From the sequence record OP045498.1: a DNA stretch of 64,000 bases; one strand, written 5' to 3'. The notes under the pieces are model-generated. The model was not told where the DNA came from. It worked only from the letters and a program-made list of their open reading frames with translations, and searched no databases. The stretch is from Klebsiella phage 150049. Positions 15,600 to 32,566 of this stretch are shown here, piece after piece. The first letter of the stretch is position 1, and the number at the start of each line of letters is the position of its first letter. Made by a program: the position numbers and the translations under genes.

Positions 15600-16125
15600 A
15601 ATTGAAAACCATTGAGGAGTAGCGAACTCTCTACACTAGAAGCTTGCATGCTCATACCTAGTGATTAGACCTAGCAAATAGGCGCTACAAGTAACGACCC
15701 TAAGTGGTAGACTCAAACAGACAATGATTTTCAATTGTGGCGGCTCTCCGAAACTCATCACACTAACAACTAGTTGATTACTTCTGGATTCTCGCCCAGA
15801 AAATTCTCTAGAAAGGTGCACCGTTACTCTTTGAGCCATTGATGATGGGATGGTCTCTCATCCCCACTAACTACTTAATCCTTACGATTCGTCGGTTAGC
15901 ACGAGCAGCAACCCTTCATATATAATTTATAGTGCCCAGAAGGTCATTAGAAGCACTTTATCAAGAAGTAGAAGGACTCGAACCTTCAAGAGATAGACCA
16001 TTTATCTCAGCCTCGTTTTCGGGTATCTTATGAGGAGTGGATGTTCCCCTTACGCCCTTTAGGAAGCCCCGTCTACCGATTCCGGCATACTTCAAGATTC
16101 TGCTAGTCCGAGTCATGCTCTAGCA
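15600..16125 (-). ncRNA. candidate stable non-coding RNA region (~520 nt) with an embedded tRNA-like T-arm at 15971..15987
   Basis: no credible ORF on either strand; GAAGG-TTCGAGT-CCTTC arm; within tRNA cluster. Confidence 0.3.
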
Positions 16126-16467
16126 TCAAATGCTCGGTGTTAGTGGTTTCCAAAGTTTAGCAAACTTTAAAACATTTGGTATATCGTTAGAACTTACTGG
16201 CATAACTACTAAACAGCTGGGTTCTGCGTTACAAATAGTACGCTCAAATCCTTTACTACACTCTAGCGTAGACAGAATCTTCTTAAATTCTTTCTTGTTA
16301 ACCTTAATAACTACCTTAAAGAAGCAGTTGTCAAACCAATCCTTATATCTAGGATCATCCTGAAATTTAACATGAGCATTTAAAACAGAGTGTGCCACTA
16401 GAGTCGGCACCATATAATCAGGGGCTTCATCTAATACTGCAATATACATCTTACTATAAGTACTCAT
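16126..16467 (-). CDS. hypothetical protein (113 aa)
   Basis: ORF track. Confidence 0.5.
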   Translation of the reverse strand: MSTYSKMYIAVLDEAPDYMVPTLVAHSVLNAHVKFQDDPRYKDWFDNCFFKVVIKVNKKEFKKILSTLECSKGFERTICNAEPSCLVVMPVSSNDIPNVLKFAKLWKPLTPSI

Positions 16468-16483
16468 ACTGTTCCTTATAATT

Positions 16484-16573
16484 TGGAGGAAGGTAATGGA
16501 GTCGAACCATCACCATATCGCTACAGCGGGCAGGTTTTCAAGACCTGTTACATACCACTATGTCCTACCTTCC
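16484..16573 (-). tRNA. tRNA-Ser (TGA), class II
   Basis: 90 nt, anticodon arm CAGGT-CTTGAAA-ACCTG, long variable arm. Confidence 0.7.
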
Positions 16574-16580
16574 AGTTGTT

Positions 16581-16673
16581 TGGCGGAAGAAGAGAGATTC
16601 GAACTCTCAAGCCTGCTTTCACAAGTCAGCCACTTTCCAAGCGGTTTTCGTCACCAAGTCGATTTGCTCTTCC
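16581..16673 (-). tRNA. tRNA-Ser (GGA), class II
   Basis: 93 nt, loop TTGGAAA, T-arm GAGAG-TTCGAAT-CTCTC. Confidence 0.6.
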
Positions 16674-16831
16674 GTAGATCTCAGGATTAAATCATAAACT
16701 TCATTAGCGGATACTGGAAGTATGAGATTATACATCTTTTGGTCATACCTCTGACCATACTCTATAAACACATACTCTTTAGTTAATGTATTAACAGCTA
16801 ACCAGATATCAGTTATAGGAGTTTTCATCAT
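16619..16831 (-). CDS. hypothetical protein (70 aa); 3' end overlaps tRNA-Ser(GGA) call
   Basis: ORF track; overlap with tRNA lowers confidence. Confidence 0.3.
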   Translation of the reverse strand: MMKTPITDIWLAVNTLTKEYVFIEYGQRYDQKMYNLILPVSANEVYDLILRSTEEQIDLVTKTAWKVADL

Positions 16832-17173: not shown

Positions 17174-17249
17174 TGGTGGAGTCACTCAGAATTGAACTGA
17201 GTTCCACTGCTTGCAAGGCAGTAAGTTTAACCAAATAACCTATGACCCC
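17174..17249 (-). tRNA. tRNA-Ala (TGC)
   Basis: G3-U70 pair, anticodon arm ACTGC-CTTGCAA-GCAGT. Confidence 0.7.
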
Positions 17250-17254
17250 GAATT

Positions 17255-17328
17255 TGGTGGAGAAAGAGGGAGTTGAACCCTCGTCTTCTGCGTGCAAAGC
17301 AGATGTTCTACCATTAAACTATATCCCC
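17255..17328 (-). tRNA. tRNA-Ala (TGC), second copy
   Basis: G3-U70, anticodon arm TCTGC-TTTGCAC-GCAGA; one acceptor mismatch. Confidence 0.5.
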
Positions 17329-17339
17329 AAAATCTTTTA

Positions 17340-17650
17340 GTTTACTAAGGCTATTAGCTCGGTGTGCGTAATACCCTCGGCAATTAGCCATGCGAGGATA
17401 CCCGCTCTCCACAAACCCGATACACTATTCAGTTGCCGCTGAATCTAGTGGACTAATCTAGAACTTCTTGCAAAGTATCCCCCGCCATTAGGGGTCTAAT
17501 TGCAACCGTGCTTTTTGGCAGCCAGTCCTAGGTCGAGCTAATACCTTAGTGAACTAAATTGATGGATATCAGACTAATTTTGCTACGGCGTTTATCCTGA
17601 GGATCTCTTTTTCGGTAGCTCTGCTAGTGTAGACGTCATACACCTGATAT
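17340..17650 (-). ncRNA. candidate stable non-coding RNA (~310 nt) between promoter and tRNA-Ala genes
   Basis: ORF-free on both strands, directly downstream of promoter 17678..17713. Confidence 0.3.
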
Positions 17651-17677
17651 CTAGGCAGCTATTTTCACATCAATTTA

Positions 17678-17713
17678 TATAAATATTATAACAAGAAATT
17701 AAGCATCAAGCAA
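17678..17713 (-). promoter_or_regulatory. T5-type early promoter driving ncRNA/tRNA sub-cluster
   Basis: -10 17685..17690, -35 17708..17713. Confidence 0.6.
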
Positions 17714-18065
17714 GTACATTTTTAGCAATTTCTTGTAGTTCCTTAACGTCACTAACGAAAAGGTAGTCAGAGCTTCCAGAGTGCATACTCTGCATAACCA
17801 CACCACCATCCGGTGCATCTTCTTTCAAAGTAATACCTAACCAGAACTCGGCAAAACTAGGTGTTACCTCACCTTGACTTGCCTTGAACACATCGCCTTC
17901 TGTAATCTCTTGACCAGTGGAGAGTCCCATGTATGGTACGTTCAGATCAATATCTTTGTAGAATTCAGCTAGATCTTGCTCGAAATCCCAACCTTTAGAG
18001 ATAGCGAACTCCATTGTTACATGACCGAAATAGCCTTGAACCTTGCTTGATAATTGCATTTGCAA
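17706..18065 (-). CDS. hypothetical protein (119 aa)
   Basis: ORF track. Confidence 0.55.
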   Translation of the reverse strand: MQMQLSSKVQGYFGHVTMEFAISKGWDFEQDLAEFYKDIDLNVPYMGLSTGQEITEGDVFKASQGEVTPSFAEFWLGITLKEDAPDGGVVMQSMHSGSSDYLFVSDVKELQEIAKNVLA

Positions 18066-19055: not shown

Positions 19056-19080
19056 AATATTCTTTGTTAACTCACTTTAT

Positions 19081-19116
19081 AAAATATATTATACAGATAT
19101 TTAAGCATAATAGCAA
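19081..19116 (-). promoter_or_regulatory. T5-type early promoter
   Basis: -10 19088..19093, -35 19111..19116 TTGCTA. Confidence 0.6.
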
Positions 19117-19135
19117 ATGAGTTTTTAATAAATTT

Positions 19136-19365
19136 ACTTATTGCGTAGGCCACCTCACGCTTCAAACGCTCTGCTGACAAAGAAGTTTGCGAGACTTCTC
19201 TTAAATGCCAGAATAGACCCGCCGATCTATCGGAACCTACTCAATAAGTAAACTTTCGTTTACCTACACCTACCTGGTCGGGAGGATTTTCAGCGACTAG
19301 AACCGGCCGGAAACTCATCGCCTTGTTTATCTAGGAGTCCGTTCTCTAGGAAGCAGAAACCTAAA
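19136..19365 (-). ncRNA. candidate stable non-coding RNA (~230 nt)
   Basis: ORF-free, GC-rich relative to flanks, upstream of promoter 19081..19116 and downstream of tRNA-Gly. Confidence 0.3.
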
Positions 19366-19367
19366 TT

Positions 19368-19441: not shown

Positions 19442-19644
19442 ATAATAAGTCAATCTAGGCAGGACTTGAACCTGCTATCACTTGTGCGGATTTACGAGAA
19501 CCATTCTTTCACTCGAATCGAACGAGCTTCTACCCTCGGCAAGCTGGTGTCCCCTCTCCACCACGCTAGAATGTTTGTTAATGAATAGAGTCCGGTGTAG
19601 CAGTCCGTAAGGGTGCACCTACTGTAGCCTTTACTCTATTTGTT

Positions 19645-20200: not shown

Positions 20201-20302
20201 ATCTATTTCCTCAGTTATTAATGAAAATGGTATCTGTGACTGAATTCGATATCAGTAATGATAGCTGGTTGGCTACCGGTTTACTTAACTCTACACAGAA
20301 TA

Positions 20303-28661: not shown

Positions 28662-29750
28662 TTTAGGTATTTTTAAGAACTCTTATAAAAGCTCTTAAAG
28701 ATACCCGACGGTAGGTAGGGTCAGCCCCCTCAGATTAAGCTCTGCAGCCCTTCCGTCAGACAATATCTTCCAGTTTAAGTCAGGGTGACTTTGTGGTTAT
28801 GTTCTCCGTATGTGAAGAACTCGGTTAGGCTTAGGTCATGACTCCCAGCCTACTGCTGCCGCTCAACAGGAATTATCGCGAATTACCTGTACTATTGGGC
28901 ACCATTAGTGCCATCTCTCATGTCAGCGTTTCCCACTCTCATATTCACGCGGTCTGTTAGAATCGCACCTCCGATTTTCGATGCGAAGCTGGATGCCTAG
29001 TCTCAGGTTAAACGGGGCACACACTAGGCAGTGATCCCGAGTTCCGAGTTTGGTTGAGGCCGTCAGGTTTCCTCGTGGTTTAGCTGTTTCGATTCTAACC
29101 TAATACTGATCAGGTGGCGTACCTCCTGAACCGTCATAGTATGTACTCCAGCAGCGAATGCTTATCCGGTATAAGCCCGAGTTATCCGATTCTTTCCAGA
29201 AGGAGCAGTAAAGCTCAATGTCAGCCTGTGAGCATCTGGCAGTGTTATCACATAAGTCAGTTCGACACCCCACATTTTAGTGCCTGGTAGATCCCGAATG
29301 AAGCCCTCAGTCGTTAGACCTCCATCATTCATCAAAGATTTACGCTACCCACTATTCGATGGACAATCGCCGCATTGTGGTATACATACGTTTTCACTTG
29401 CATCCTAGACGGGTCAGCGTTGAAAGTTATATGGGTTTCTCAAGCCCAACCTTCAGTCTTCTACCCCTGGGACACGCACCGTATTTCACACTGTGCCTAG
29501 CTCCTGTTGAGACCCATCGTTTTGTATAAATTAGAGAAGAGTTTAGAGGAGAGGTTTCAGACGCCTCATTTTACAAGAAGTCTCGAACCTATATTCGTTA
29601 CTCTAGTCACTTGGCCGGATATACCGGACTGGACTCGGAACTCTAACAGGTGATCATTCTTAACCCACCGACTCTATTCAGTGTCAGAAGCTATCACTAG
29701 GTGAATCGCTAAAGCTCACTCAGCGTAATCGGCTCGCTGTTCTCTAATTT
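28662..29750 (-). ncRNA. candidate large (~1.1 kb) structured non-coding RNA
   Basis: ORF track shows no ORF of 60 aa or more on any of six frames between 28566 and 29795; GC-enriched; transcribed from promoter 29752..29787 into tRNA-Arg and SPFH operon. Confidence 0.4.
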
Positions 29751-29751
29751 A

Positions 29752-29787
29752 TGAATCTATTATACAGAATTTTGGAACGTTTAGCAA
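29752..29787 (-). promoter_or_regulatory. T5-type early promoter driving the large non-coding segment
   Basis: -10 29759..29764, -35 TTGCTA 29782..29787. Confidence 0.6.
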
Positions 29788-29795
29788 ATCAATTT

Positions 29796-30239
29796 TTAAT
29801 TAAATTCGCCAGCAACCTGAGCAGCAATGCCACCATCGTAACGACCAGGAAACTCTTCCTTAATCGCTTTCATCAGCATACCCTTTGTAATCCCAGGATT
29901 CAACTTAACTAATTCTGCAAAGTATTTGCGAATCTCAGAATCAGATAACTGAGGCGGCAGATACTGTTGTAGCCATTTGTTCAGTATATATTCATACTGA
30001 GCAGACTGCAAGCTATAATTATCAAGGTCTTGACCGTGAAGTTTAGCTTTTGTCTGATTAATGCTTTTCAGTTGAGCTTTTAGATAAGATACAAACTGTT
30101 CAGAAGTAATGAAGTCTTTATCAACACGCTGAAGATCTCCGATTATAGTCTGGTAGCTTTTAGCTACTTCTTTATCAGAACCATCAACCTTAGATTCCTG
30201 CAAAGCCCTACGCAAAACATCTAGAATATTCTCTTCCAT
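29796..30239 (-). CDS. hypothetical protein (147 aa)
   Basis: ORF track. Confidence 0.55.
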   Translation of the reverse strand: MEENILDVLRRALQESKVDGSDKEVAKSYQTIIGDLQRVDKDFITSEQFVSYLKAQLKSINQTKAKLHGQDLDNYSLQSAQYEYILNKWLQQYLPPQLSDSEIRKYFAELVKLNPGITKGMLMKAIKEEFPGRYDGGIAAQVAGEFN

Positions 30240-30409
30240 TATTTAATTCCCAGTGCTTGGTTAAAAGATTGTTCTGTCATAACTGCCGAGACTTTAGCGA
30301 AATCAAACTTCTTAGGGTTTGTAGTAATTTCAGCAACGTTAGTAGTTTTAACTGTTTTCGTAGTACGGATACCACGAGTATTAACACCAATAATTACAAC
30401 TGATTTCAT
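30239..30409 (-). CDS. small ORF (56 aa), TAATG-coupled to downstream gene
   Basis: MKSVVIIGVNTRGIRTTKTV..; stop overlaps next ATG. Confidence 0.35.
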   Translation of the reverse strand: MKSVVIIGVNTRGIRTTKTVKTTNVAEITTNPKKFDFAKVSAVMTEQSFNQALGIK

Positions 30410-30432
30410 ATTTCGCTTCCTCTCATTAATTT

Positions 30433-30468
30433 ATGAAAGTATTATACAGAAATTTAAGGCTTTAAGCA
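30433..30468 (-). promoter_or_regulatory. T5-type early promoter
   Basis: -10 30440..30445, -35 30463..30468. Confidence 0.6.
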
Positions 30469-30477
30469 ATCGAATTT

Positions 30478-30945
30478 TTAAGTTTTCTTAACCACAGGCT
30501 TGTAGAACGTATGGCCTTGAATCTTCGTTGTTTTCTTAAACTTCTTTGTCCAGTACGGTTTATCTTTACCACTATGGAAGTATAACGCTCCATGTGTTGG
30601 ATCTTGTGGTAAATCAACGTAGTATATCACTCTAGCTAAATTCTTAGCAACTTGCCAAGCCTCATCGGTTTTATCAACTTTTGGTCTCTTGGCCACCCAA
30701 GAGAACTGGTTAGACTGATATACTACTTTACAGTAAGAATCAGGAAAAGTACCAGAGTTAACACGGTTTTTAGTAACCTGTGCAACTGCGATCATTCCTT
30801 TAGTGCCCTCACCTCGTGCTTCGAAGTAGATATTTTTTGCAATGCAATCAATCTGCTTTGAGTCGTAGGTCGCATGACTATTGAAGCTATAGGTTAGGGC
30901 AGCTATTAAAAGCAAAGCTGCCTTCATTTTATTTACTCCGGCCAA
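30478..30945 (-). CDS. secreted cell-wall hydrolase, SleB/CwlJ (Hydrolase_2) family (155 aa)
   Basis: signal peptide; NIYFEARGEG motif characteristic of SleB-like hydrolases. Confidence 0.6.
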   Translation of the reverse strand: MAGVNKMKAALLLIAALTYSFNSHATYDSKQIDCIAKNIYFEARGEGTKGMIAVAQVTKNRVNSGTFPDSYCKVVYQSNQFSWVAKRPKVDKTDEAWQVAKNLARVIYYVDLPQDPTHGALYFHSGKDKPYWTKKFKKTTKIQGHTFYKPVVKKT

Positions 30946-31250
30946 TCGTACTCAATACGATTAGGGCTTTCTTGATACCCTTCGTCTAAGAGATCATTAC
31001 GCATGGTCTCTTTAGCTACTGGGTTCGAGGTTACTAGTACCACTTTCTTGGGTCTCTGACCAAATTCTAGGAGTAAACGAAGAATTTGATAACCTTCCAT
31101 ACCATCTACAGCCAGATCGTTATCCATATAAACGAAATGACCTGTGGTATCGGTTTTATTCAGAAACTCAACAGCGGCTTCTGGGGTTCGAATGATAATA
31201 TCCATCCCATGCAGGTCACGAACATCATCAATCAGAATATGAAAAATCAT
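30933..31250 (-). CDS. hypothetical protein (105 aa), weak receiver-domain-like pattern
   Basis: ORF track. Confidence 0.45.
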   Translation of the reverse strand: MIFHILIDDVRDLHGMDIIIRTPEAAVEFLNKTDTTGHFVYMDNDLAVDGMEGYQILRLLLEFGQRPKKVVLVTSNPVAKETMRNDLLDEGYQESPNRIEYDWPE

Positions 31251-31273
31251 AATAGCCTCGTCTCATCAATTTA

Positions 31274-31309
31274 AAAATATATTATATAGAAAACTAAACT
31301 AATTAGCAA
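31274..31309 (-). promoter_or_regulatory. T5-type early promoter
   Basis: -10 31281..31286, -35 31304..31309. Confidence 0.6.
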
Positions 31310-31325
31310 ATACATTTTTAAATTG

Positions 31326-31681
31326 AGAGACTAGTAAACCGATAAACAGCCTAGAGGCGCCACAGGCCATATCTTATGAGCCATGTACCTTTGATCTAGG
31401 GTTTGAATCATCAACGAATACTTTGCATCTTTTAGCTTTAGAAGGTTAGAAGTTTGAGTGCTTTTAACTTTTCAGCTTTCATACTTGAGCGTTGATCTTT
31501 GAAGTTGTGTTGGTACTACCAACGACCGTTTTTACAGTTCAGCTTAAGAGGCTGGTGTAATAAACATAATCTCCAATAGATTATACTTTATAGTATGGTC
31601 AGCGGTCTTATTTAACCTCGTATTTCAACCGCTGCTGCGAGGTAAGATGCTTGGGCTTTCGTCTACCGATTTACTAGTCTT
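31326..31681 (-). repeat. ~355-nt ORF-free element bounded by ~25-bp imperfect inverted repeats (GAGACTAGTAAACCGATAAACAGCC / GGCTTTCGTCTACCGATTTACTAGTCT)
   Basis: arms at 31326..31350 and 31655..31681. Confidence 0.4.
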
Positions 31682-31689
31682 TTAAATTA

Positions 31690-32328
31690 TTACTCTACTT
31701 CGATAAAAGTAGAGGCGTTGGACTCAGACAGAACAAAGTCAACGTTGGTTGCAAAGTCCTGGTATTCTTCGTCGTGTTGCTTGATCAGCTTTTCCAGCTC
31801 CAGCGGATCGATCAGGAACGGAGTGTTCTTGAGTTCCAGCAGGTTAAGCTGCATCTTAACTTCATCCTCGGAAGTCTTCTTGTCGCGGGTAGCCATGGTA
31901 TCCTGCAAACGCTCATACTTGGCATCAAACTGAGCCTTCTGAGTGTTAAACTTAACAGTAGCAGCATGGAACTGCTTACGCATGTTAGCCAGCAACTGAG
32001 CTTTGAGTTCCATAGAACGCTTAGCTTCGATTGCTTCCGCAACAGTCATAGAGCGGGAACCGATCTCTACAACAGTTTCAGCATTGCTCTTGATCAGCGC
32101 TGCTTTCAGCTGATCACGCTGGGACATCATATCCAGCAGAGACTGGAAATCAGTCTTAATACGAGTAGACAGAGCATCTACTTCGATTGCAGCGCCAACG
32201 ACAACTTGGTTCTTGTCCTTACCTTCACCAACAGCGATCAAAAGCTGTTGTTCAGTAGCTTTACGGATTTTAGCTTCCAGAGACTTGATAGTTGCCAGAG
32301 CACGAGTTTTAGAGATACGAGTAGTCAT
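31690..32328 (-). CDS. alpha-helical protein with high-expression codon usage (212 aa from MTTRISK)
   Basis: RBS AGGAAGC before ATG 32328; ORF-track N-terminal extension to 32436 rejected. Confidence 0.55.
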   Translation of the reverse strand: MTTRISKTRALATIKSLEAKIRKATEQQLLIAVGEGKDKNQVVVGAAIEVDALSTRIKTDFQSLLDMMSQRDQLKAALIKSNAETVVEIGSRSMTVAEAIEAKRSMELKAQLLANMRKQFHAATVKFNTQKAQFDAKYERLQDTMATRDKKTSEDEVKMQLNLLELKNTPFLIDPLELEKLIKQHDEEYQDFATNVDFVLSESNASTFIEVE

Positions 32329-32362
32329 TATTTGCTTCCTTATATGAAGTTTGAGATTTGAA

Positions 32363-32393
32363 TTTGTTTTAAAAAACGGTCTATTACAGACCG
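32363..32393 (-). terminator. rho-independent terminator (CGGTCT..AGACCG plus TTTTTTAAAA)
   Basis: hairpin 32377..32393. Confidence 0.55.
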
Positions 32394-32566
32394 ATTGCCA
32401 GCAGAGTGCGCAGAACAGTATCAGAACTGTTATCAATATTCGGATTGGCGCGATTCAGTACGTTAAAGATTTTCTGGATGCCGGACTGACGTTCAGCCAT
32501 ACGACGCAGACCCAGGTTACGTTTTGCTACTTTACCATTTTTACGGACGTTTTTAGATACTGGCAT
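32384..32566 (-). CDS. small basic protein (60 aa)
   Basis: RBS AAGGAAA; K/R-rich. Confidence 0.45.
   Translation of the reverse strand: MPVSKNVRKNGKVAKRNLGLRRMAERQSGIQKIFNVLNRANPNIDNSSDTVLRTLLAIGL

What the first reader, a model, noticed from the sequence alone, without database searches (positions are those of the whole stretch)
15600..16125. ORF-free gaps inside the tRNA region: candidate stable non-tRNA RNAs (also 17340..17650 and 19136..19365)
Three stretches of 230-520 nt have no plausible ORF on either strand. They are flanked by tRNAs and early promoters (17678..17713 fires directly into the 17340..17650 gap), and the 15600..16125 gap contains a perfect tRNA-like T-arm (GAAGG-UUCGAGU-CCUUC at 15971..15987) that cannot be completed into a canonical tRNA, as the putative acceptor partners are 131 nt apart. 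T5-group phages have long been reported to make non-tRNA stable RNAs from this region. These are candidates for tRNA-like ncRNAs, processed spacers, or permuted/intron-containing tRNA genes.
Basis: partly seen in the sequence, partly recalled or inferred. Interest (0 to 1): 0.55.

Follow-up and report, generated by a model that had tools for sequence, protein, structure and literature searches.

The report
Known T5-type stable RNA genes
The three "empty" stretches in this T5-like phage's tRNA cluster are counterparts of the small stable RNA genes annotated in phages T5 and BF23, plus a few unannotated sister modules; they are real structured RNAs, but the kind is already known and its function is still unknown.

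Summary
The window is a T5-like Salmonella phage (Demerecviridae). All 29 tRNAs lie on the minus strand. The three flagged gaps line up with misc_RNA "stable RNA" genes annotated in T5 (NC_005859) and BF23 (AJ604530).

- **Gap 1:**
- **Gap 2:** promoter P13b, a ~100-nt leader insert, then RNA2H.
- **Gap 3:** an unannotated module Y, then RNAIV. Both lie upstream of promoter P13a.

Base-pair covariation across 20-24 relatives supports folded RNAs: 10 of 38 pairs in RNA1, 22 of 57 in RNA2H and 11 of 24 in X show compensatory changes. The 51-aa and 67-aa ORFs in gap 1 are not conserved as coding. ARAGORN's "tRNA-Phe with a 41-nt intron" call for RNA1 fails, because the supposed anticodon loop varies while the "intron" loop is invariant. 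No Rfam family matches.

Function remains unknown, and in T5 the region holding RNA1, RNAI, RNAIII and RNA2H can be deleted. Modest new points are modules X and Y, cassette-like allele swapping, and an RNA2 core shared with T4-like Acinetobacter phages.

The parts
15959..16096 (-). RNA1 homologue: class-II-tRNA-like stable RNA. It has an acceptor-like helix, a D-arm like that of tRNA-Leu, an enlarged branched 'anticodon' arm with invariant loop ACAUCCAC, a hairpin GAGAUA-AAUGGUC-UAUCUC in the variable-arm position, and a T-arm.
   Evidence: 79% identity over 138 nt to T5 rna1, E=2e-28. In 24 homologues, 10 of 38 pairs show compensatory change, and 99.3% of cells pair against 39-50% when partners are slid. 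ARAGORN -i draws a cloverleaf.
15971..15987 (-).
   Evidence: Sequence read directly. All five stem pairs are invariant in 24 homologues.
15838..15958 (-). Module X: an extra three-hairpin RNA module between RNA1 and RNAI. It is absent from T5 and BF23 and is not annotated in any of the four records examined that carry it.
   Evidence: Homologues in JLBYU43, UTK0009 and Klebsiella phage Roth50. 11 of 24 predicted pairs show compensatory change among only 4 sequences.
15738..15837 (-). RNAI homologue: a 5-bp terminal helix (GGCUC/GAGCC) followed by an encoded GCCA 3' end, plus a central hairpin. The interior is a different 'allele' from T5's.
   Evidence: The ends match T5 rnaI at 95% and 91%. 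In the alignment of 22 sequences, 6 of 15 pairs are compensatory, including the terminal helix (UA to CG). The leader ...CAAU| matches the junctions of the real tRNAs.
15601..15737 (-). Occupant of the RNAIII slot: a 133-137-nt element closed by a 15-bp helix (AAUUGAAAAUCAUUG/CAAUGGUUUUCAAUU), immediately 5' of tRNA-His.
   Evidence: Same position and same termini (UGAAAAU...UUUUCAAU) as T5 rnaIII, but the interior is not alignable. It is homologous to the element in Klebsiella Sugarlandvirus phages, with compensatory changes in the closing helix. Fold z-score is -2.6.
17668..17734 (-). Early promoter, homologue of T5 P13b (-35 TTGCTT at 17713..17708, -10 TATAAT at 17690..17685).
   Evidence: 91% identity to the T5 regulatory feature P13b.
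17565..17667 (-). Leader insert between P13b and RNA2H. It is present in only a subset of relatives and is predicted to form a closed hairpin domain.
   Evidence: 84 of 504 records cover at least 80% of the gap-2 query; most others, like T5, match only from about query position 104, downstream of this insert. It is nearly invariant, with one compensatory pair. Fold z-score is about 0, so the evidence for structure is weak.
17344..17548 (-). RNA2H homologue (T5-equivalent ends 17543..17349): a multi-helix RNA of about 195-205 nt closed by a 15-bp terminal helix, just upstream of tRNA-Ala.
   Evidence: 80% identity to T5 rna2H. Fold z-score is -3.4. In 22 homologues including Klebsiella phages, 22 of 57 pairs are compensatory, and 98.1% of cells pair against 30-44% when slid.
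19241..19367 (-). Module Y: a conserved unannotated segment between tRNA-Gly(GCC) and RNAIV. Its 3' part includes the hairpin GUAAAC-GAAA-GUUUAC.
   Evidence: Present in BF23 (unannotated there), JLBYU43 and UTK0009; the 3' hairpin is also in Pectobacterium phage DU_PP_V. Only 2 of 23 pairs are compensatory, so the evidence is moderate.
19142..19242 (-). RNAIV homologue: a three-way junction closed by the terminal helix GUAGGUU/GGCCUAC.
   Evidence: 89% identity to T5 rnaIV. In 19 homologues it is highly conserved; 3 of 33 pairs are compensatory, and the last hairpin is replaced by a different hairpin in the window.
19072..19135 (-). Early promoter, homologue of T5 P13a. It lies downstream of RNAIV and drives tRNA-Pro onward.
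   Evidence: 87.5% identity to T5 P13a. Consensus scan finds TTGCTA, 17-nt spacer, TATAAT at 19116..19088.
19449..19573 (-). RNA2 homologue (tRNA-like, with two T-loop hairpins).
   Evidence: 90% identity to T5 rna2. 12 of 34 pairs are compensatory in 12 sequences. The core is shared with Acinetobacter T4-like phages.
20228..20300 (-). RNA3 homologue (73-nt tRNA-like RNA ending in ACCA).
   Evidence: 96% identity to T5 rna3. Fold z-score is -2.7.

Best explanation
The three gaps hold genes for small structured non-coding RNAs. They are orthologues or allelic variants of the 'stable RNAs' annotated in T5 and BF23 (RNA1, RNAI, the RNAIII slot, RNA2H, RNAIV), plus unannotated modules of the same style (X, Y and a leader insert).

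Shown here: sequence homology, conserved position, and secondary structures kept by compensatory substitutions.

Inferred biogenesis:
- They are transcribed from early sigma-70 promoters as part of the long tRNA-operon transcripts. P13b serves gap 2 and, by read-through, gap 1. An upstream promoter serves gap 3.
- Each module folds so that its 5' and 3' ends pair in a terminal helix. In RNA1 that helix adjoins a T-arm in a cloverleaf layout. In RNAI it is followed by an encoded RCCA.
- The junctions look like the tRNA-tRNA junctions of the same cluster: an A/U spacer with U at -1.
- Host tRNA-processing enzymes (RNase P at the 5' end; RNase E and 3' exonucleases) therefore probably excise them, and their compact folds let them accumulate.

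RNA1 looks like a descendant of a class II tRNA (Leu-like D-arm) whose anticodon loop was replaced by a 41-nt hairpin domain, so it cannot decode.

Biological role is not known. Invariant loops on covarying stems argue for a sequence-specific trans-acting role, most plausibly tRNA mimicry towards a host or phage tRNA-binding factor. They are dispensable for plaque formation in the laboratory.
For: - T5 and BF23 records annotate rna1, rnaI, rnaIII, rna2H, rnaIV, rna2 and rna3 as stable or tRNA-like RNAs at the syntenic positions.
- blastn of those features onto the window: RNA1 79%, RNA2H 80%, RNAIV 89%, RNA2 90%, RNA3 96%, RNAI termini 91-95%, P13b 91%, P13a 87.5%.
- Covariation: RNA1 10/38 pairs, RNA2H 22/57, RNAI 6/15, X 11/24, RNA2 12/34.
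- Controls for RNA1 and RNA2H: 0 of 500 shuffles reach the observed covariation score, and pairing falls from 98-99% to 30-50% when partners are slid.
- In Klebsiella phage KpGranit the RNA1 acceptor helix is replaced by an unrelated 13-bp helix while the core stays 92% identical.
- The elements are widespread: 504, 504 and 432 phage records match gaps 1, 2 and 3.
- The ORFs are not conserved as coding.
- Junction context resembles that of real tRNAs, and RNAI encodes CCA like the tRNAs of the cluster.
Against: - No expression or processing data exist for this phage. Stability rests on the wording of the T5 and BF23 annotations.
- The interiors of RNAI and of the RNAIII slot are not alignable to the T5 versions; only the termini and a central hairpin are shared.
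- The leader insert and Y have little covariation.
- Single-sequence fold z-scores for RNA1, RNAI, X and RNA2 are unremarkable, -1.1 to -0.1.
- The viable T5 mutant T5-123 has lost 29191-32442, which covers rnaIII, rnaI, rna1 and rna2H. Fragments of that deletion without tRNA-Lys did not rescue infection of PARIS+ cells (PMC11464382; coordinates). Any function is therefore conditional.
Confidence: 0.88

Rival explanations
1. Neutral relics: decayed tRNA genes and spacer hairpins that persist and accumulate only because they still fold and are cut out by the tRNA-processing machinery. They would have no function of their own.
For: - RNA1, RNA2 and RNA3 look like damaged tRNAs.
- Modules come and go between close relatives: X, the leader insert and Y are each present only in subsets, and the RNAIII slot ranges from 64 to 137 nt.
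- The T5 region carrying four of them is deletable.
Against: - Loops ACAUCCAC and AAUGGUC of RNA1, and the RNA2 core GAAAGAAUGGUUC.CGUAA, are invariant or nearly so across subfamilies, while the stems around them change in a compensatory way.
- RNA2H keeps 57 pairs from Markadamsvirinae to Sugarlandvirus.
- The RNA2 core is kept even in T4-like Acinetobacter phages.
- Neutral sequence in a phage genome packed this tightly would not be expected to stay conserved like this.
Confidence: 0.15
2. RNA1 (and RNA2) are true tRNA genes interrupted by short introns that are spliced out to give a decoding tRNA.
For: At a relaxed threshold it calls RNA2 tRNA-Pro(agg) with a 27-nt intron. GenBank records JLBYU43 and JLBYU40 annotate the RNA1 locus as tRNA-Phe and tRNA-Leu respectively.
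Against: - The putative anticodon-loop residues differ between homologues (CU...AAAAC...CAUAAAG, CG...UAAAAG), whereas the 'intron' holds the invariant loop.
- A class II body with a Phe anticodon is incoherent.
- 41 nt is far too short for a group I intron, and no intron family matches in Rfam.
- There is no tRNA hit at E<=10 with the Rfam tRNA model.
- T5 curators annotated it as a 144-nt stable RNA, not as a tRNA.
Confidence: 0.03
3. The gaps contain small protein-coding genes: the 67-aa ORF at 15636..15839 and the 51-aa ORF at 15961..16116.
For: Both start with ATG on the transcribed strand. The 67-aa ORF matches phrog_24969, E=2e-20. Several GenBank records call 'hypothetical protein' here.
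Against: - There is no Pfam hit.
- Most homologues have in-frame stops in the 51-aa frame.
- The ORF over RNAI is 22 codons in T5 (read by eye from the T5 sequence, not computed) and ends at different places elsewhere.
- There is no third-codon-position excess.
- Substitutions are compensatory in RNA helices but non-synonymous in the ORF.
- There is no purine-rich Shine-Dalgarno sequence before the ATG.
- The PHROG family is most simply explained as repeated mis-annotation of the conserved RNAI sequence.
Confidence: 0.03

Closest known systems
Stable RNAs of phages T5 and BF23 (rna1, rnaI, rnaIII, rna2H, rnaIV, rna2, rna3, rnaX; GenBank NC_005859/AY543070 and AJ604530)
   Same: Same positions relative to the tRNA-Ser(UGA), tRNA-His, tRNA-Ala and tRNA-Pro genes and to promoters P13b and P13a. 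Identity is 79-96% for RNA1, RNA2H, RNAIV, RNA2 and RNA3. The terminal helices and, for RNAI, the encoded CCA are the same.
   Different: - RNAI has a different interior.
- The RNAIII slot holds a longer element related to the Klebsiella-phage version, not to T5's.
- RNA2H has a longer internal hairpin and a different 3' domain.
- Extra modules X and Y and a leader insert are present.
- tRNA-Gly(GCC) sits between RNA2 and RNAIV, as in BF23.
Phage T4 species 1 and species 2 RNAs (rnaC, rnaD)
   Same: They are small stable RNAs encoded in a phage tRNA cluster, next to a tRNA. rnaC has a 3' T-arm plus a terminal helix. Their function is unknown after decades (PMC3014915; PMC9697503).
   Different: There is no detectable sequence similarity. 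blastn finds only T-loop words, and nhmmer profiles of RNA1, RNA2, RNAI and RNA2H find nothing in the T4 tRNA region. They are analogues, not homologues.
Canonical class II tRNA (tRNA-Leu type), Rfam RF00005
   Same: RNA1 has an acceptor helix, a 3-bp D-stem with loop GAAUCGGUAGA like the phage's own tRNA-Leu, a long extra arm, and a T-arm with UUCGAGU.
   Different: The anticodon arm is replaced by a 59-nt branched arm. There is no conserved anticodon and no encoded CCA. It is not found by ARAGORN in default mode or by the Rfam tRNA model.
tRNA-like domains of tmRNA and bacterial or phage Y-RNA-like RNAs (YrlA)
   Same: The general idea is shared: an acceptor/T-arm module joined to a non-tRNA body, processed by tRNA enzymes.
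   Different: ARAGORN finds no tmRNA. No Rfam hit to tmRNA or YrlA falls on these elements; the only YrlA match, E=7.4, lies on the real tRNA-Gly.

Membership tests
T5 RNA1 (tRNA-like stable RNA) | Sequence homology to the annotated T5/BF23 rna1 gene | tested here: met
   79% identity over 138 of 144 nt, E=2e-28. 504 phage records match gap 1, most of them over the RNA1 portion.
T5 RNA1 (tRNA-like stable RNA) | Position between tRNA-Ser(UGA)+small ORF and RNAI/tRNA-His | tested here: met
   Window order is tRNA-Ser(tga) 16573, ORF 16467..16126, RNA1, X, RNAI, RNAIII slot, tRNA-His 15599.
T5 RNA1 (tRNA-like stable RNA) | Shared secondary structure | tested here: met
   10 of 38 pairs are compensatory and 99.3% of cells pair.
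T5 RNA1 (tRNA-like stable RNA) | Accumulates as a discrete stable RNA in infected cells | not testable with these tools
   Rests only on the T5/BF23 annotation wording.
T5 RNAI | Terminal helix GGCUC/GAGCC followed by RCCA, plus a central hairpin | tested here: met
   Termini are 91-95% identical. The helix and hairpin are kept with compensatory changes.
T5 RNAI | Homology along the whole length | tested here: not met
   The interior (about 65 nt) is a different sequence type from T5's. Two allele types exist among relatives.
T5 RNAIII | Sequence homology to T5 rnaIII | tested here: not met
   No blastn hit. Only the termini UGAAAAU...UUUUCAAU and the position next to tRNA-His are shared. The interior is homologous to the Klebsiella Sugarlandvirus element.
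T5 RNA2H | Homology, position between P13b and tRNA-Ala, and long closing helix | tested here: met
   80% identity. 22 of 57 pairs are compensatory. The 15-bp closing helix is present.
T5 RNAIV | Homology and position just upstream of P13a | tested here: met
   89% identity over 101 nt, directly adjoining the P13a homologue.
Canonical tRNA | Scores above threshold with a tRNA model (Rfam RF00005 at 29 bits or more; ARAGORN default) | tested here: not met
   No tRNA hit in any gap, even at E<=10.
Canonical tRNA | 7-nt anticodon loop with a conserved anticodon | tested here: not met
   The region is variable among RNA1 homologues.
Intron-containing tRNA | A cloverleaf is recovered after removing an insert | tested here: met
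   ARAGORN -i calls tRNA-Phe(aaa) with a 41-nt intron.
Intron-containing tRNA | Exon (anticodon loop) conserved and intron less constrained; a recognisable self-splicing intron | tested here: not met
   The opposite pattern is seen. No intron family matches in Rfam.
tmRNA | tRNA-like domain plus tag reading frame, detectable by ARAGORN or Rfam | tested here: not met
   ARAGORN -m finds 0 genes. There is no Rfam hit.
Small phage protein (phrog_24969) | Profile match | tested here: met
   E=2e-20 to residues 7-43 of the 67-aa ORF.
Small phage protein (phrog_24969) | Evolutionary signature of coding: preserved frame and third-position bias | tested here: not met
   Variable sites by codon position are 7/8/7. 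ORF length is unstable between phages.

The most novel reading that the evidence does not exclude
The modules could be an exchangeable toolkit of tRNA mimics with a real function in infection. RNA1, RNA2, RNA3 and RNAI would present an acceptor/T-arm face to host tRNA-binding factors: anticodon nucleases and other tRNA-targeting defences, tRNA modification or processing enzymes, synthetases, or EF-Tu. Their invariant loops would give specificity, so they would act as decoys or sponges. The cassette-like swapping of interiors between conserved termini, and the sharing of the RNA2 core between T5-like and T4-like Acinetobacter phages, would then reflect an arms race, not decay.
Probability: 0.2. 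Interest if true: 0.65.

Novelty: new member of a known kind. Interest (0 to 1): 0.3.

Why it matters
It matters mainly as annotation. Hundreds of T5-like genomes leave these stretches blank or call spurious small proteins or odd tRNAs there, and one PHROG family appears to be built on such calls. No Rfam family exists for any of these RNAs.

The covariation-backed structures give concrete models for RNAs whose function has been open since they were first annotated, as it has for T4 rnaC and rnaD. They also point to which loops to mutate. Phage tRNAs are now known to counter tRNA-cleaving defences, so tRNA-like RNAs encoded alongside them are reasonable candidates for related roles. That is speculation until tested.

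Tried and rejected
- **Rfam.** The gathering scan of the whole window and permissive scans of each gap gave only real tRNAs and chance-level hits such as mir-2780, plastid UTRs and YrlA at E=7.4 on tRNA-Gly.
- **tmRNA search.** ARAGORN -m found none.
- **Intron-tRNA reading of RNA1 and RNA2.** Rejected on conservation pattern.
- **Coding reading of the 51-aa and 67-aa ORFs.** Rejected.
- **Homology to T4 rnaC and rnaD.** None by blastn or nhmmer.
- **Promoter inside module X.** The consensus scan lists none on the minus strand between 17018 and 15400, apart from a weak 9/12 site at 16541.
- **Link between the RNA2-like element and the RF-1-domain gene next to it in Acinetobacter phage ZZ1.** The equally sized gene in phage 133 is unrelated, so I dropped it.
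- **Literature.** Six full-text searches found no open paper describing the T5 stable RNAs or any RNA-seq of T5 small RNAs. PubMed id 29512629, on T5 tRNA-region deletions, is not held.
- **Single-sequence folding energies.** Uninformative for RNA1, RNAI, X and RNA2.

Full report
**What the window is.** ARAGORN finds 29 tRNA genes, all on the minus strand, between 13963 and 28661. Megablast places the region in T5-like phages (Demerecviridae, mostly Epseptimavirus and Tequintavirus). 531 records match, and Salmonella phage bastian is 100% identical over gap 1. Everything below is read on the minus strand, so transcription runs from high to low coordinates.

**Checking the observation.**
- The T-arm GAAGG-UUCGAGU-CCUUC is at 15987..15971, as stated.
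It is 91% identical to the annotated T5 promoter P13b.
- The claim of 'no plausible ORF' needs qualifying. Gap 1 contains ATG ORFs of 51 aa (15961..16116) and 67 aa (15636..15839) on the transcribed strand, and the latter hits phrog_24969.
- Neither ORF behaves as coding. Most homologues have in-frame stops in the 51-aa frame. ORF ends differ between phages. Variable sites are spread evenly over codon positions (17/23/20 and 7/8/7). There is no Pfam match.

**What the gaps are.** The curated T5 record (NC_005859, same coordinates as AY543070) and the BF23 tRNA-region record (AJ604530) annotate misc_RNA genes described as 'stable RNA with unknown functions' or 'tRNA-like stable RNA':
- rna1, rnaI and rnaIII lie between a small ORF and tRNA-His.
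- rna2H lies between promoter P13b and tRNA-Ala.
- rnaIV and rna2 lie just upstream of promoter P13a.
- rna3 lies before tRNA-Asn.
- BF23 also annotates rnaX, before tRNA-Arg.

Mapping the T5 features onto the window gives:

| T5 feature | Window position | Identity |
|---|---|---|
| RNA1 | 16096..15959 | 79%, E=2e-28 |
| RNAI (termini only) | 15837..15818 and 15759..15738 | 95% and 91% |
| RNA2H | 17543..17412 and 17362..17349 | 80% |
| P13b | 17734..17668 | 91% |
| RNAIV | 19240..19142 | 89% |
| P13a | 19135..19072 | 87.5% |
| RNA2 | 19573..19449 | 90% |
| RNA3 | 20300..20228 | 96% |

All three gaps are thus occupied by counterparts of known genes.

**Gap 1 in detail (5' to 3').**

*RNA1.*
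- ARAGORN with introns allowed draws it as a class II cloverleaf: a 6-7-bp acceptor helix, a 3-bp D-stem with a loop like the phage's own tRNA-Leu, a long extra arm and a T-arm. It treats 41 nt in the anticodon loop as an 'intron'.
- In 24 homologues, 10 of 38 predicted pairs change on both sides while staying paired.
- 99.3% of cells pair, against 39-50% when partners are slid. No shuffle out of 500 reaches the observed covariation score.
- In Klebsiella phage KpGranit the acceptor helix is replaced by an unrelated 13-bp helix while the core stays 92% identical.
- The loops ACAUCCAC and AAUGGUC are invariant, whereas the residues ARAGORN reads as the anticodon loop vary. This is the reverse of what an intron-bearing tRNA would show.

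*Module X (15958..15838).* It is absent from T5 and BF23. It is present in JLBYU43, UTK0009 and Klebsiella phage Roth50. Its three hairpins show 11 of 24 compensatory pairs among only four sequences.

*RNAI (15837..15738).*
- It starts GGCUC and ends GAGCC-G-CCA, an acceptor-like helix with an encoded CCA, like the tRNAs of this cluster.
- It is preceded by ...CAAU, like many real tRNAs here.
- Its interior is a different allele from T5's. The terminal helix and a central hairpin are kept, with 6 of 15 pairs compensatory.

*RNAIII slot (15737..15601).* It shares only termini and position with T5 rnaIII. It is homologous to the Sugarlandvirus element and is closed by a 15-bp helix that covaries.

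**Gap 2.** P13b is followed by a leader insert of about 100 nt (17667..17565). The insert is found in only a subset of relatives and is nearly invariant, so structural evidence for it is weak. Next comes the RNA2H homologue, 17548..17344. Its fold z-score is -3.4 and it is closed by a 15-bp helix. Across 22 homologues, including Klebsiella phages, 22 of 57 pairs are compensatory. 98.1% of cells pair, against 30-44% when slid.

**Gap 3.** After tRNA-Gly(GCC) comes module Y (19367..19241). Y is conserved but unannotated even in BF23, and has little covariation. RNAIV follows (19242..19142). It is highly conserved, and its last hairpin is swapped for a different one in this phage. Both lie upstream of P13a, so that promoter does not drive them. 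They belong to the transcript coming from further upstream.

**How it probably works.** The following is inference from anatomy.
- The modules sit in the tRNA operons with no consensus-scan promoter and no U-tract terminator of their own on the transcribed strand. One caveat: that scan also failed to list the P13b homologue.
- Each brings its ends together in a terminal helix.
- The junctions resemble tRNA-tRNA junctions, with an A/U spacer and U at -1.
- The likeliest biogenesis is excision by RNase P and the 3'-processing nucleases, then accumulation because of compact structure.

Function is unknown, as it is for the analogous T4 RNAs rnaC and rnaD (PMC3014915, PMC9697503). In T5, the viable mutant T5-123 lacks 29191-32442, an interval that includes rnaIII, rnaI, rna1 and rna2H. 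Fragments of that deletion lacking tRNA-Lys did not rescue infection of PARIS+ cells (PMC11464382; coordinates). These RNAs are therefore dispensable in the laboratory and did not detectably counter PARIS in that assay.

**Comparison with known families.**
- No Rfam family matches any element.
- ARAGORN finds no tmRNA.
- T4 rnaC and rnaD are analogues without sequence similarity.
- The elements are members or variants of the T5/BF23 stable-RNA set. The membership table gives the per-feature tests.

**Modestly new points.**
- Modules X and Y and the leader insert are unannotated sisters of the known RNAs.
- The RNAI and RNAIII slots behave as cassettes, with conserved termini and interchangeable interiors.
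It has two T-loop hairpins, and its core is also conserved in Pectobacterium, Klebsiella and Serratia Demerecviridae and in 14 records of T4-like Acinetobacter phages.

**Verdict.** It is a rediscovery of an annotated, decades-old class, so novelty and interest are low to moderate.

Noticed in passing
window 19449-19573 (-); L027:1464-1568, L034:601-698, L035:354-397, L028:5005-5140, L029:9107-9254: The RNA2 homologue has two T-loop hairpins and a near-invariant core, GAAAGAAUGGUUC.CGUAA.UCCGCA. The same core occurs in T4-like Acinetobacter phages (133, ZZ1; 14 records) and in Serratia, Pectobacterium and Klebsiella Demerecviridae. The helices and the acceptor stem covary (CAUUCUAG/CUAGAAUG, UAUGGGG/UCCCGUA, GGGUACU/GGUAUCC).
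   Followed up: partly
window 28662-~29745 (-): The stretch upstream of tRNA-Arg(TCT) matches BF23 'RNAX', a 784-nt annotated stable RNA. Identity is 78% over the 3' 288 nt, with shorter pieces further up.
   Followed up: partly
window 16581-16673 (-): ARAGORN at a relaxed threshold calls a tRNA-Ser(GGA) here, at the position of T5 tRNA-Ser2. It is missed at default settings and overlaps the listed ORF 16619..16831, so it may be a degenerate tRNA.
   Followed up: no
window 15636-15839 (-): phrog_24969 ('unknown function') matches the ORF that overlies RNAI. The family is probably built from mis-annotated RNAI sequence rather than from a real protein.
   Followed up: partly
window 15738-15837 and 15601-15737; loci L001, L003, L029, L031-L033: The RNAI and RNAIII slots behave like cassettes. 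Termini are conserved, but there are two (RNAI) or at least three (RNAIII: 64, 106 and about 135 nt) unrelated interiors, mixed in different combinations among close relatives. JLBYU43, for example, has window-type RNAI with T5-type RNAIII.
   Followed up: partly
L033:5006-5140 (JLBYU43); JLBYU40 (hits H80/H82): Public records annotate the RNA1 locus inconsistently: as tRNA-Phe(aaa) of 135 nt, as tRNA-Leu, as 'hypothetical protein', or not at all.
   Followed up: yes
L034:601-958 (Acinetobacter phage ZZ1): In ZZ1 the RNA2-like element lies about 30 nt upstream of a 76-aa gene annotated 'RF-1 domain peptide chain release factor'. The same-sized gene near the element in phage 133 is unrelated, so the linkage is not general.
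   Followed up: partly
window 17174-17249 and 17255-17328 (-): There are two adjacent tRNA-Ala(TGC) genes where T5 has one.
   Followed up: no
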